From Escherichia coli (GTDB lineage: Bacteria > Pseudomonadota > Gammaproteobacteria > Enterobacterales > Enterobacteriaceae): a DNA stretch of 64,000 nt. Made by a program: the position numbers. This document shows positions 52,101 through 55,100 of the stretch, one piece after another (position 1 is the stretch's first letter; each line of letters opens with the position of its first letter). The stretch lies in the NCBI RefSeq assembly GCF_050920415.1, contig NZ_CP169309.1. One strand, 5' to 3'.

Positions 52101-55100
52101 GCCGAATCTGTTCGTTTCGCACAGGGATGTTCGTCAATGGCGCTCTCCTGTGAATACACCAATAACCCCGATTTATCGATTGCCAACGTTATATCGTTAG
52201 TGGAGAACGCAGAATGTCTGAATTAAAAATTTCCCCTGAATTATTACAAATTTCCCCGGAAGTGCAGGACGCTTTAAAAAACAAAAAACCGGTTGTGGCA
52301 CTGGAATCGACCATTATTTCTCACGGGATGCCGTTCCCGCAAAATGCTGAGACGGCAATTGAAGTAGAAGACACAATTCGTAAGCACGGTGCTGTACCTG
52401 CAACAATCGCCATTATTGGTGGTGTCATGAAAGTAGGTTTGAGCAAAGAAGAAATTGAATTGTTAGGCCGTGAAGGACATAACGTGACGAAAGTCAGTCG
52501 CCGTGATTTACCTTTTGTCGTTGCCACAGGAAAAAATGGCGCGACCACCGTTGCTTCAACGATGATTATCGCGGCACTGGCAGGAATTAAAGTATTTGCA
52601 ACGGGGGGTATTGGTGGTGTACATCGCGGTGCGGAACATACATTCGATATTTCTGCCGATTTACAGGAACTGGCAAATACTAATGTCACCGTTGTTTGTG
52701 CCGGTGCAAAATCTATTCTCGATTTAGGATTAACAACAGAATATTTAGAAACCTTCGGTGTACCGTTAATTGGCTATCAGACAAAAGCGCTGCCTGCGTT
52801 TTTCTGCCGTACCAGCCCATTTGAAGTCAGTATTCGCCTTGATAGTGCCACGGAAATCGCTCGTGCAATGGCAGTGAAATGGCAAACCGGTTTGAACGGC
52901 GGCCTGGTAGTGGCGAATCCGATCCCGGAGCAGTTTGCGATGCCGGAGGAATCTATCAATGCAGCCATAGATCAAGCTGTCGCCGAAGCCGAAGAGCAGG
53001 GCGTTATTGGTAAAGAAAGTACACCGTTCCTGCTGGCTCGTGTTGCTGAACTGACCGGTGGTGACAGCCTGAAATCCAACATCCAACTGGTGTTCAACAA
53101 CGCCATTCTGGCGAGCGAAATTGCCAAAGAATACCAGCGTCTCGCGGGTTAATTTCTGACGGGCAGAAAGCCGTCGCCCGTACTGATCATACATACCAAA
53201 ACCTGGCGCTAGCGCCGGGTTTACTGGCATGAAAGGAAAATCATTATGGATATAATGAGAAGTTTGGTGGGTATGGTGGTATTGCTGGCAATTGCATTCT
53301 TATTGTCAGTGAATAAAAAAGGTATCAGCATACGCACGGTCGGGGCTGCATTGCTGCTGCAAATCGCTATTGGTGGCATTATGCTCTACTTCCCACCGGG
53401 AAAATGGGCAGTAGAGCAGGCGGCATTAGGCGTGCATAAAGTGATGTCTTACAGTGATGCCGGTAGCGCCTTCATTTTTGGTTCGCTGGTTGGGCCGAAA
53501 ATGGATGTCCTGTTTGATGGCGCGGGCTTTATCTTCGCCTTTCGCGTACTTCCGGCAATTATTTTCGTCACAGCGCTCATCAGCCTGCTGTACTACATTG
53601 GCGTGATGGGGCTGCTAATCCGCATTCTTGGCAGTATTTTTCAGAAAGCCCTCAACATCAGCAAAATCGAATCTTTTGTTGCGGTTACCACTATTTTCCT
53701 CGGGCAAAATGAGATCCCGGCGATCGTTAAACCGTTTATCGATCGCATGAATCGCAACGAGCTATTTACGGCAATTTGTAGCGGGATGGCGTCCATTGCC
53801 GGTTCGATGATGATTGGTTATGCCGGAATGGGCGTACCAATTGACTACCTGTTAGCGGCATCGCTGATGGCGATCCCTGGTGGTATTTTGTTTGCACGTA
53901 TTCTTAGCCCAGCCACCGAGCCTTCGCAGGTGACATTTGAAAATCTGTCGTTCAGCGAAACGCCGCCAAAAAGTTTTATCGAAGCGGCGGCGAGCGGTGC
54001 GATGACCGGGTTGAAAATCGCCGCTGGTGTGGCGACGGTGGTAATGGCGTTTGTGGCAATTATTGCGCTGATCAACGGCATTATCGGCGGAATTGGTGGC
54101 TGGTTTGGTTTTTCCAATGCCTCTCTGGAAAGTATTTTTGGCTATGTGCTGGCACCGCTGGCGTGGATCATGGGCGTGGACTGGAGTGATGCCAACCTTG
54201 CGGGTAGTCTGATTGGGCAGAAACTGGCGATTAACGAATTCGTCGCTTACCTGAGTTTCTCCCCATACCTGCAAACGGGCGGCACGCTGGAAGTGAAAAC
54301 CATTGCGATTATCTCCTTTGCGCTTTGTGGTTTTGCTAACTTTGGTTCTATCGGTGTAGTCGTTGGGGCGTTTTCGGCTATTTCGCCAAAACGCGCGCCG
54401 GAAATCGCCCAGCTTGGGTTACGGGCGCTGGCAGCAGCAACGCTTTCCAACCTGATGAGCGCGACCATTGCCGGGTTCTTTATTGGTTTAGCTTGAGTTT
54501 CATTGCCGGATGTACGCGCTTATTAAGCGTTGCATCCGGTAATCACGTACTATTCCAGATTATTTTTTACTGCATCATCCCGGAGAATTTATTCTCCGGG
54601 TCCATCTCCAGCGCCAGCCCTAACAACTGCTTTCTGTTTTTAATCAGATACCCTTTCTTGCTTTTAATTAATAAACCGTCATGAATGAATTGCGCGAGAA
54701 CATATAAAAGATGTCGATAAGAAACGCCCAAATACTCTGCCGCTTGCGTATGCTTTTCGTGATAAAGATCACCTTCCTGCGAGAGTAATATAAAAGCTGC
54801 CAGGCGATTCACTAACGGAAATGATTGATTCTGAGTTAAAGAAACAATATTACGATAATTTTTATGACTTAAGGTGACGCAGAGTTTTCGTAAAAATAGC
54901 GTGTCGTTTAATAACAGCGGACGGTAATGTTTCATGGGGAGTGCAAGGCACCAACACTCTTCAATCGCCTGTACCGCTCGTGGTTCATGATCTTTATCGA
55001 TTAACTCAATCTCGCCAATAAAACAGGGTGCAGCAAAGAAATCAATCAGCGACACGCGACCATTAGCAAGCGTGGCGTAAAGCCTGGCGCGGCCTCGCGT

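What the first reader, a model, noticed from the sequence alone, without database searches (positions are those of the whole stretch)
53157..53190. Conserved leader element shared by the paralogous nucleoside transporter genes
TGACGGGCAGAAAGCCGTCGCCCGTACTGATCA upstream of psuT is mirrored by TGATGGGCAGAAAGACGTCGCCCAAAATGACATG upstream of nupX (56388-56420). Conservation of a non-coding element beyond the duplicated coding region suggests a shared cis-regulatory or RNA leader element.
Basis: seen in the sequence. Interest (0 to 1): 0.3.

Follow-up and report, generated by a model that had tools for sequence, protein, structure and literature searches.

The report
Conserved hairpin before nucleoside transporter genes
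A short RNA hairpin with a fixed 11-base loop sits in front of both paralogous nucleoside-transporter genes (psuT and nupX) of E. coli and of their relatives in about ten other enterobacterial genera; it is kept by selection, matches no catalogued RNA family, and is probably a control element for the transporter, but its partner and mechanism are unknown.

Summary
The window is an E. coli fruA-psuK-psuG-psuT / yeiL / rihB-nupX region. The shared core GGGCAGAAAGMCGTCGCCC occurs twice (0.04 expected) and twice per E. coli genome.

It is not a passive remnant of the duplication. Four-fold synonymous sites of psuT and nupX are only 45% identical, against 26 of 28 bases in the element.

Every psuT or nupX leader I recovered with the E. 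coli-type gene start has the same hairpin (hp1): 35 distinct sequences from about ten genera plus metagenomes. It has a 5-8 bp stem, always an 11-nt loop (consensus A-G-N3-G-C-N-G-U-C), and lies 29-72 nt before the start codon. The stem changes by compensation (C-G/U-A/U·G, G-C/A-U, A-U/G-C), and the wobbles fit only the mRNA strand. 96% of cells pair, against 33-54% in slid controls.

No Rfam family matches, and it is not a terminator, REP, ops, cold box, operator palindrome or uORF.

The hairpin under selection is well supported (about 0.85). The mechanism is inferred. Most likely the loop is recognised by a trans-acting factor that sets transporter expression apart from the upstream enzyme genes (about 0.45). 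A generic stabilising hairpin (0.25) or a small ligand sensor (0.1) remain possible.

The parts
53159..53181 (+). hp1, psuT copy. 5' arm ACGGGC 53159-53164, 11-nt loop AGAAAGCCGTC 53165-53175, 3' arm GCCCGT 53176-53181. The stem begins 6 nt after the psuG stop codon (53150-53152).
   Evidence: Sequence. Loop position. Covariance model 39.7 bits. Stem covariation. It is the minimum-energy fold of the isolated segment, -11.1 kcal/mol.
56390..56412 (+). hp1, nupX copy. 5' arm (A)TGGGC 56390-56395, loop AGAAAGACGTC 56396-56406, 3' arm GCCCA(A) 56407-56412. Five pairs form here, and the closing pair is U-A where psuT has C-G.
   Evidence: Sequence. Loop position. Covariance model 33.1 bits. It appears in the minimum-energy fold of the 126-nt region and of the isolated segment, -8.3 kcal/mol.
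53152..53158 (+). 5' flank ATTTCTG, identical in both E. coli copies (second copy 56383-56389). It differs in other genera.
   Evidence: It is E. coli-specific, so it is not part of the conserved core.
53186..53201 (+). Linker block ATCATACATACCAAAA (consensus AUCAnAnAUACCRAAA). It is conserved in the leaders that keep hp2 and in a few others, and is deleted in the E. coli nupX leader.
   Evidence: Leader alignment.
53202..53222 (+). hp2, a terminator-like hairpin: CCTGGCG-CTAG-CGCCGGG followed by TTT, just before the psuT ribosome-binding site. It is absent from the nupX leader of this window.
   Evidence: Fold. In 20 distinct leaders the arms are conserved, the loop is free in length (4-6 nt) and sequence, and the U tail is 3-4 nt. 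The simple terminator scan does not call it, because the U-tract is too short.
53241..53258 (+). Start-codon hairpin of psuT: TCATTAT-GGAT-ATAATGA, which encloses the ATG at 53246.
   Evidence: All pairs are invariant and partly coding, so there is no covariation evidence for or against it.
56349..56382 (+). Hairpin after the rihB stop codon (AGCCGGG...CCCGGCT). It is followed by TATTTCT, which overlaps the 5' flank of hp1. Other genera have a non-homologous hairpin at this place.
   Evidence: Fold. Comparison of nupX leaders.
56414..56446 (+). Start-region hairpin of nupX: ATGACAT (56414-56420) pairs with ATGTCAT (56440-56446), enclosing the Shine-Dalgarno-like AAGAGA and the ATG at 56436.
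   Evidence: Minimum-energy fold.

Best explanation
hp1 is a cis-acting RNA hairpin in the untranslated spacer that precedes the transporter cistron of two operons, psuK-psuG-psuT and rihB-nupX. It belongs to the transporter gene, because it accompanies that gene behind two unrelated upstream enzymes.

Shown: it folds in the mRNA-sense strand; its stem is maintained by compensating substitutions; its loop is held at exactly 11 nt with G2, G6, G9 and U10 nearly invariant.

Inferred: the loop is a sequence-specific recognition surface for a trans-acting factor, more probably a protein than a base-pairing RNA. Binding or hairpin formation then sets the amount of transporter made independently of the upstream enzyme genes. 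This would act on the fate of the transporter segment of the mRNA (decay, processing or read-through), not by directly covering the ribosome-binding site, because the distance to the start codon varies from 29 to 72 nt.
For: (1) Selection. The element is 26/28 identical between the paralogues, against 45% at four-fold sites. The family-wide figures are 72% against 45%.

(2) It is universal in an unbiased sample. All 23 leaders of psuT/nupX genes fetched through the protein, not through the motif, carry it. A metagenome scan that left the stem unconstrained returned only loci with the hairpin, in the same two gene contexts.

(3) RNA structure. In 29 distinct sequences 96% of cells pair, against 33-54% when the partner column is slid. 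No shuffle out of 500 reaches the observed pairing or covariation score. Three of the six pairs show double changes (CG19/UA6/UG4; GC26/AU3; AU15/GC6/GU2). RNAalifold predicts the same helix on its own.

(4) Strand. Seven cells are G·U or U·G wobbles that pair only on the + strand, against two A·C cells. E. coli UTI89 has GUGGGC/GCCCGU, two adjacent wobbles.

(5) Different stems occur within one genome: E. coli C-G and U-A; E. hormaechei ACAGGC/GCCUGU and UGACGGGC/GCCCGUCA. That argues against a DNA operator.

(6) Loop-specific constraint, with an internal control. hp2 in the same leaders keeps its arms but lets its loop drift in length and sequence. The hairpin after rihB is not even homologous between genera. 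The hp1 loop, by contrast, is 11 nt in 35/35 distinct sequences.

(7) hp1 is the only leader element kept when the linker and hp2 are deleted, as in E. coli nupX.
Against: No partner is known, and none is encoded consistently beside the element. yeiL or yeiI is adjacent in most loci, but neither is in all of them.

No expression, 5'/3'-end or binding data were found for these leaders in the searchable literature.

One variant, E. hormaechei nupX, has lost most loop identities (GAUCCCGGGUU) and becomes a fully paired 12-bp hairpin. That fits a purely structural role better.

The sequences come from closely related genera, and the number of independent compensating events is small (I count about five). 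The shuffle statistics therefore overstate significance.

The inner three stem pairs hardly vary, so they are uninformative.
Confidence: 0.45

Rival explanations
1. hp1 is a generic structural element. It would be a stable hairpin that protects the transporter segment of the polycistronic mRNA, as a 5'-terminal stem-loop after cleavage in the A/U-rich stretch just upstream. Alternatively it would insulate the downstream leader from ribosomes finishing psuG. No specific partner would be involved.
For: It is intercistronic, and 6-11 nt after the psuG stop codon in every psuT leader. A/U-rich single-stranded sequence lies directly 5' of it (AAUUUCUG, AUAAAAACUG, CAAACCUG). Its distance to the start codon varies. 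The E. hormaechei nupX variant keeps the hairpin but not the loop identities. The hairpin is moderately stable, -8 to -12 kcal/mol.
Against: It does not explain a loop fixed at 11 nt with four or more near-invariant positions, when hp2 and the post-rihB hairpin in the same leaders drift freely. In nupX leaders another hairpin already follows rihB, so hp1 is not needed as the upstream 3' protector. No consistent promoter lies at a fixed distance upstream that would make hp1 5'-terminal.
Confidence: 0.25
2. hp1 is part of a very small ligand-sensing RNA. Together with the conserved linker and the terminator-like hp2, it would form an aptamer plus expression platform that responds to pseudouridine or a pyrimidine nucleoside.
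For: The psuT-type leader has the layout covarying hairpin, conserved single-stranded block, GC-rich hairpin with U3-4, then ribosome-binding site. It lies upstream of nucleoside transporters. The conserved bases are interspersed with free ones in the loop.
Against: I found no conserved alternative pairing between hp1 or the linker and hp2, and no loop-tail pseudoknot (inspection). hp2 and the linker are missing from many nupX leaders, which keep hp1 alone. The U-tract is short. No Rfam riboswitch matches even at E<=10. A 23-nt hairpin is smaller than any known aptamer.
Confidence: 0.1
3. The element is a DNA operator: an inverted repeat bound by a transcription factor such as YeiL (CRP/FNR family) or the HTH-carrying kinase paralogue YeiI.
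For: It is an inverted repeat near genes for two putative regulators. GGC and GCC at the inner stem are invariant.
Against: The arms co-vary within a single genome that would have one regulator. Wobble pairs would be A·C mismatches in half-site symmetry. The half-site centres are 17 bp apart. Neither regulator gene is present in all loci. The element lies inside operons, after the first gene or genes, not at their promoters.
Confidence: 0.05
4. The element has no function. The similarity would be a remnant of the duplication, kept alike by gene conversion between the two E. coli leaders.
For: The two E. coli copies share derived features not seen in other genera: the flank ATTTCTGA and loop bases AAA at positions 3-5. 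That suggests some exchange between them.
Against: The hairpin is conserved in genera that have only one of the two operons, namely Citrobacter, Klebsiella, Leclercia, Buttiauxella and Superficieibacter. There conversion cannot act, and synonymous sites there are saturated.
Confidence: 0.03
5. The conservation reflects a small upstream ORF or leader peptide that starts at the AUG inside the 5' arm of the nupX copy.
For: In the window, 56390-56422 reads AUG GGC AGA AAG ACG UCG CCC AAA AUG ACA UGA. In Buttiauxella the same AUG is in frame with nupX.
Against: psuT-type and several nupX-type copies have ACG, GCG or ACA instead of AUG. The variable positions fall on codon positions 1 and 2, not 3. 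The U of that AUG always keeps a pairing partner.
Confidence: 0.02

Closest known systems
Protein-recognised leader hairpins of bacterial mRNAs (lambda nut boxB bound by N; RAT hairpins bound by BglG/SacY-type antiterminators)
   Same: A short GC-closed hairpin whose loop bases are conserved while the stem may co-vary. It sits in a transcribed leader or intercistronic spacer, in the psuT leader upstream of a terminator-like hairpin, and is read as RNA.
   Different: The loop is 11 nt, not a GNRA-like pentaloop or the RAT internal loops. There is no boxA. There is no overlap with the downstream terminator, which RAT elements require. No cognate protein gene lies in the locus. The comparison rests on my knowledge of those systems, and only the anatomy was tested here.
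5' or intercistronic stabilising stem-loops (ompA 5' hairpin, cspA cold-box stem-loop, papBA and malEFG intercistronic hairpins)
   Same: A hairpin in a spacer of a polycistronic mRNA that could give the distal cistron its own stability. It is flanked by A/U-rich single-stranded RNA.
   Different: Those elements work through structure, with little loop-sequence requirement, whereas hp1 has a fixed loop. The 9/11 match of E. coli psuT to the cold-box string is at chance level: 15 such matches in the window against 11 expected.
Smallest riboswitches (preQ1-I, about 34 nt: hairpin, large loop and A-rich tail; HMP-PP thiS motif embedded in a terminator)
   Same: A small hairpin with a large conserved loop, followed by an A/C-rich tail and, in psuT leaders, a terminator-like stem. 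It lies upstream of a transporter for a related metabolite class.
   Different: No loop-tail pseudoknot or alternative pairing is conserved. The tail and terminator are dispensable in many nupX leaders. There is no Rfam match.
Discoordinate operon control at an internal cistron (Spot 42 at galK, SgrS at pldB-yigL, RyhB at iscRSUA)
   Same: The regulatory site lies between cistrons and would uncouple a distal gene from the proximal ones.
   Different: Those sites are single-stranded pairing sites for known small RNAs. In hp1 the conserved bases are interrupted by free positions, leaving at most 3 contiguous, which suits base pairing poorly.

Membership tests
Any Rfam 15 family | Match to a curated covariance model | tested here: not met
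   cmscan of 50500-58500 at E<=10 gave 9 weak chance-level hits, none at 53150-53260 or 56340-56450.
Intrinsic (Rho-independent) terminator | GC-rich stem with a short loop (3-8 nt), immediately followed by a U-tract | tested here: not met
   The hp1 loop is 11 nt, and the stem is followed by ACUGAUCA or AAAAUGAC. The terminator scan does not report it. The neighbouring hp2 has the stem and a U3-4 tail, and only partly meets the definition.
REP/BIME or other dispersed extragenic repeats | Many copies per genome in unrelated intergenic regions | tested here: not met
   Median 2 places per E. coli genome and maximum 3, all at psuT or nupX. There are only 2 model hits in the 64-kb window.
RfaH ops element | 12-nt consensus GGCGGTAGNNTG on the non-template strand | tested here: not met
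   E. coli psuT has AGCCGTCGCCCG, 4 mismatches in 10 specified positions. Even at 3 or fewer mismatches the window has 551 matches against 446 expected, so the resemblance carries no information.
cspA-type cold box | UGACGUACAGA at the 5' end of a cold-shock mRNA leader | tested here: not met
   The match is 9/11 in E. coli psuT only and is not conserved in other genera. Matches at 2 or fewer mismatches occur 15 times in the window against 11 expected.
Transcription-factor operator (palindromic DNA site) | Sequence-conserved symmetric half-sites; changes are not complementary between the halves within one genome | tested here: not met
   The arms differ between the two copies of one genome, but stay complementary as RNA, including G·U.
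Riboswitch | Conserved aptamer with covarying helices | tested here: inconclusive
   There is one covarying helix with a conserved loop and a conserved linker. There is no multi-helix junction or pseudoknot.
Riboswitch | Expression platform with mutually exclusive structures | tested here: not met
   No conserved alternative pairing links hp1 or the linker with hp2 or the Shine-Dalgarno sequence. The platform is absent from many nupX leaders.
Riboswitch | Direct ligand binding | not testable with these tools
   This needs in-line probing, ITC or a reporter assay with pseudouridine, uridine or cytidine.
Upstream ORF / leader peptide | Conserved start and stop codons, with substitutions concentrated at third codon positions | tested here: not met
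   AUG is present in only some of the nupX copies. The variable columns correspond to codon positions 1-2.
Structured cis-regulatory mRNA leader element (generic kind) | Non-coding, on the sense strand of the mRNA, more conserved than neutral sites, with a helix supported by compensating changes | tested here: met
Structured cis-regulatory mRNA leader element (generic kind) | Demonstrated effect on expression of the downstream gene | not testable with these tools
   No data were found in the literature searches.

The most novel reading that the evidence does not exclude
hp1, alone or with the conserved linker and the terminator-like hp2, is a new and unusually small sensor RNA dedicated to uptake of pseudouridine or pyrimidine nucleosides. 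It would either bind the nucleoside directly or bind a dedicated, still unidentified RNA-binding protein. This would add a new class of riboregulator in E. coli itself and a handle on how cells control salvage of modified nucleosides.
Probability: 0.12. Interest if true: 0.7.

Novelty: new member of a known kind. Interest (0 to 1): 0.4.

Why it matters
psuT and nupX are among the least understood nucleoside transporters of E. coli. PsuT showed no uridine, cytidine or xanthosine transport in the one study I found, and NupX only weak uridine/cytidine transport (PMC11241209). I found nothing published on how they are controlled.

A conserved, covarying hairpin with a fixed loop directly in front of both genes gives a concrete, mutable target for asking when and how these transporters are made. 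It is also a candidate orphan RNA motif in the best-studied bacterium that the curated RNA libraries do not contain.

If it turns out to be only a stabilising hairpin, the finding is ordinary. If it has a specific partner, it defines a small new regulatory module for the salvage of pseudouridine and pyrimidine nucleosides.

Tried and rejected
- **Rfam.** The scan at a permissive threshold found nothing at the element.
- **Promoter reading.** CTGACG-17-CGTACT and CTGATG-17-CAAAAT are not called by the consensus scan. No promoter-like pair lies at a constant distance upstream in other genera. The best recurrent match sits inside conserved psuG coding sequence, so it is uninformative.
- **ops (RfaH) and cold-box look-alikes.** Both are at chance level.
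- **Extended loop pairing.** G2·U10 is kept in 22/23 sequences plus one A-U, but both bases are nearly invariant, so this says nothing. Positions 3-9 pair in only 13/23. Predicted inner pairs differ between species.
- **Outer helix.** The 5' CUGA and the downstream AUCAG give 6 bp in one E. coli strain but are not conserved (inspection).
- **Loop-tail pseudoknot and antiterminator pairing with hp2.** Neither is conserved.
- **Anti-Shine-Dalgarno role of the pyrimidine-rich 5' flank.** It is present in only some psuT leaders.
- **sigma-54, PurR-box and CRP/FNR-type site readings of the DNA.** The spacing or the half-sites do not fit (inspection only).
- **Within-E. coli comparison.** In window versus K-12 the spacer is 92.5% identical, between psuG at 89.5% and psuT at 94.7%. 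This gives no extra signal of constraint at that scale.
- **More distant CNT genes.** The covariance model found no hp1 upstream of the transporter gene in 74 more distant loci. These include the roughly 50%-identical paralogues of Kluyvera, Pseudocitrobacter, Cedecea, Mangrovibacter, Hafnia and Serratia.
- **Literature.** I found no description of the element.
- **Not done.** I did not run a whole-genome scan of a complete E. coli chromosome with the model. Only the 64-kb window and the fetched loci were searched.
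Full report
**Locus.** The window is an E. 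coli chromosome segment. The region 52900-53400 matches psuG/psuT of 5,402 of 5,426 complete E. coli genomes. The K-12 gene order is fruA, psuK, psuG, psuT, yeiL (opposite strand), rihB, nupX, yeiI, nfo. In the window this order corresponds to ORFs at 51285-52226, 52214-53152, 53246-54496, 54567-55265(-), 55395-56336 and 56436-57686. Both transporter genes are therefore the last cistron of a short operon, each behind a different enzyme: PsuG (a pseudouridine-5'-phosphate glycosidase) and RihB (a pyrimidine nucleosidase).

**Observation.** The similarity begins at ATTTC, directly after the psuG stop codon in copy 1. It is 26/28 over ATTTCTGAYGGGCAGAAAGMCGTCGCCC and then decays. The core occurs twice in 64 kb, with 0.04 expected, and at two places per E. 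coli genome. It is not a dispersed repeat.

**Is it more than a duplication remnant?** PsuT and NupX are 88% identical as proteins. Their genes are 52% identical at third codon positions and 45% at four-fold degenerate sites. Neutral sites are thus close to saturation, while the non-coding element is 93% identical. With a roughly 40-nt indel allowed for, the two leaders are homologous all the way to the ATG. Only the element and the ribosome-binding region are well kept.

**Relatives.**
- A protein-based scan of one genome per species, plus look-ups of PsuT/NupX homologues, gave leaders from the following:
  - Escherichia coli and E. albertii;
  - four Citrobacter;
  - Klebsiella michiganensis and K. 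spallanzanii;
  - Leclercia;
  - Enterobacter;
  - Kluyvera;
  - Buttiauxella;
  - Entomohabitans;
  - Superficieibacter.
- Some of these genomes have only psuK-psuG-psuT, some only yeiL-rihB-nupX, and some both.
- All 23 leaders contain the element, always between the enzyme gene and the transporter gene.
- A metagenome scan anchored on the gene start and five loop bases, with the stem left free, added further variants in the same two contexts.
- More distant CNT-family genes have no match to a covariance model of the element upstream of the transporter gene. This includes the roughly 50%-identical paralogues in other Enterobacteriaceae.
- Hafnia and Serratia psuT (73% identical) carry a different, longer hairpin in the same spacer. 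Its apical part resembles hp1.

**Anatomy.**
- The element is a hairpin, hp1, with a stem of 5-8 pairs.
- The loop is exactly 11 nt in all 35 distinct sequences. Its consensus is A-G-N-N-N-G-C-N-G-U-C. G9 and U10 are invariant, and G2 and G6 are at least 90% conserved.
- The stem varies by compensation. Examples (unless another call is given):
  - ACGGGC/GCCCGU (E. coli psuT);
  - AUGGGC/GCCCAU (nupX of several genera);
  - GCGGGC/GCCCGC (Klebsiella, Entomohabitans);
  - ACAGGC/GCCUGU (Leclercia, Enterobacter psuT);
  - UGACGGGC/GCCCGUCA (E. hormaechei nupX);
  - GUGAGC/GCCCAC (L114);
  - GUGGGC/GCCCGU (E. albertii, and E. coli UTI89).
- On 29 distinct sequences, 96% of cells form a standard pair, against 33-54% when the 3' partner is slid by 1-3 columns. 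Three of six pairs show changes on both sides. No shuffle out of 500 reaches the observed pairing or covariation score.
- RNAalifold predicts the same helix independently.
- In isolation hp1 is the minimum-energy fold in 8 of 10 variants tested, at -8 to -12 kcal/mol.
- I estimate about five independent compensating events. The sample is phylogenetically narrow, so the statistics should be read as supportive, not as formal proof.

**RNA or DNA?**
- The one-sided changes are G·U or U·G on the + strand (7 cells), against 2 A·C cells.
- Two copies in one genome have different but internally complementary arms.
- The arms are 11 nt apart.
- The element lies inside operons rather than at promoters.
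- These points favour an RNA hairpin in the sense transcript over an operator for YeiL or YeiI. Neither of those genes accompanies the element in all loci.

**Not coding.** The AUG in the 5' arm of some nupX copies opens a short ORF (window 56390-56422). It is absent from psuT copies, and the variable columns fall on codon positions 1 and 2.

**The rest of the leader.**
- psuT-type leaders, and K. spallanzanii nupX, continue as follows:
  - a conserved single-stranded block AUCAnAnAUACCRAAA;
  - a second hairpin, hp2: CCYGGC(G), a 4-6 nt loop, (C)GCCGGG, then U3-4;
  - the ribosome-binding site;
  - a small hairpin enclosing the start codon.
- hp2 looks like a weak intrinsic terminator. Its arms are conserved, but its loop is free in length and sequence.
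- Many nupX leaders, including both E. coli ones, have lost the linker and hp2, apparently by deletion between CCTGGC repeats, yet keep hp1.
- In nupX leaders a different hairpin, not homologous between genera, follows the rihB stop codon.
- These two neighbouring hairpins serve as internal controls. Where only structure matters, loops drift. The hp1 loop does not.

**Mechanism.**
- Shown: hp1 is a selected RNA hairpin that travels with the transporter gene. Its loop is under sequence-specific constraint. Its distance to the start codon varies (29-72 nt). It has no conserved alternative pairing with hp2 or with the Shine-Dalgarno sequence.
- Inferred: the loop is recognised by a trans-acting factor, and this sets transporter expression apart from the upstream enzymes. 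The likely route is mRNA decay, processing or read-through, not direct occlusion of the ribosome-binding site. I put this at about 0.45.
- A generic stabilising or insulating hairpin is the main rival, at about 0.25. It is favoured by the E. hormaechei nupX variant, which keeps a longer stem but not the loop identities.
- A small ligand sensor using hp2 as its platform is possible for the psuT-type leader, at about 0.1, but no switching structure is conserved.
- The operator, neutral-remnant and uORF readings are each at or below 0.05.

**Comparison with known systems.**
- No Rfam family matches.
- hp1 fails the definitions of an intrinsic terminator, a REP element, an RfaH ops site and the cspA cold box. 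Both of the last two resemblances are at chance level.
- It works most like protein-recognised leader hairpins such as boxB or RAT, or like intercistronic stability elements. It shares none of their defining sequences.
- The searchable literature says nothing about the regulation of these leaders.
- One genomic SELEX study lists an RpoS-holoenzyme binding peak inside psuG (PMC5493296). That peak could mark an internal promoter upstream of hp1.

**Verdict.** It is an undescribed member of a familiar kind of element, with modest interest until a partner or an effect on expression is shown.

Noticed in passing
window 53202-53222: Terminator-like hairpin hp2 (CCTGGCG-CTAG-CGCCGGG plus TTT) lies between hp1 and the psuT ribosome-binding site. 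It is conserved in 20 distinct psuT-type leaders with a free loop and a U3-4 tail. It may act as a weak internal attenuator that lowers transporter transcription relative to psuKG.
   Followed up: partly
window 53241-53258 and 56414-56446: The start codons of both transporter genes sit in local hairpins: UCAUUAU-GGAU-AUAAUGA for psuT, and AUGACAU...AUGUCAU for nupX. The partner of the Met4 codon region differs between the two genes. All pairs are invariant, so the structure is unproven.
   Followed up: partly
window 56349-56389: After rihB there is a 34-nt hairpin followed by UAUUUCU, a plausible rihB terminator whose U-tract overlaps the 5' flank of hp1. Its 3' arm GCCCG can also pair with the hp1 5' arm UGGGC. 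Other genera have unrelated hairpins at this place.
   Followed up: partly
L125 3401-3519 (E. coli UTI89) and L127 6660-6778: In UTI89 and GPEC1186 nupX is deleted except for its first 66 nt, annotated as a pseudogene fragment. The rihB-nupX leader with hp1 is retained, so nupX is dispensable in some E. coli lineages.
   Followed up: partly
loci L002-L005, L082, L085 versus L083, L086, L091, L012: The two operons are distributed independently. E. albertii, several Citrobacter, K. michiganensis and Leclercia have only psuKGT. Buttiauxella, K. spallanzanii, C. portucalensis and Superficieibacter have only yeiL-rihB-nupX. In E. coli the yeiL-rihB-nupX cassette looks like an insertion between psuT and yeiI.
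   Followed up: partly
L006-L009, about 3880-3945 (Hafnia, Serratia, 'Klebsiella sp. BIGb0407'): The psuG-psuT spacer carries a long hairpin CCUGAAAGG...CCUUUCAGG. Its apical part (GAUGGGCA-UCU-GUUUGCU in Hafnia) resembles hp1 of L121 (AUGGGCA-GUUUGCU). It is preceded by AUAAAAAC, a block also found before hp1 in some nupX leaders. It may be an older, elaborated form of the same element.
   Followed up: partly
window 52214-53152 (psuG): The psuG allele of this window is only 89.5% identical to K-12, while the neighbouring psuK is 98% and the yeiL-rihB spacer 100%. Most E. coli genomes are 80-95% identical over 52900-53400. The locus is a recombination mosaic with deep allelic lineages.
   Followed up: no
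window 56390-56422: The AUG inside the hp1 5' arm of the nupX copy opens a 10-codon ORF (MGRKTSPKMT) that ends at a UGA overlapping the ribosome-binding region. In Buttiauxella the same AUG is in frame with nupX. One database protein of 463 aa (P0001) may reflect such an upstream start call.
   Followed up: partly
psuG, K-12 coordinate 2255672 (literature): Genomic SELEX with RpoS holoenzyme lists a binding peak inside psuG, between psuT and psuK (PMC5493296). A weak TCAACA-17-GAAATT match lies 42 nt upstream of hp1 inside conserved psuG coding sequence. This may be an internal stationary-phase promoter for psuT.
   Followed up: no
window 57742-58830 (yeiI) versus 51285-52226 (psuK): YeiI is a paralogue of the pseudouridine kinase PsuK (about 39% identical). 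It has an extra N-terminal winged-helix domain (Pfam HTH_24 in the fetched loci). The Hafnia/Serratia 'PsuK' is closer to YeiI (about 51%). It may be a kinase-regulator fusion relevant to control of these operons.
   Followed up: no
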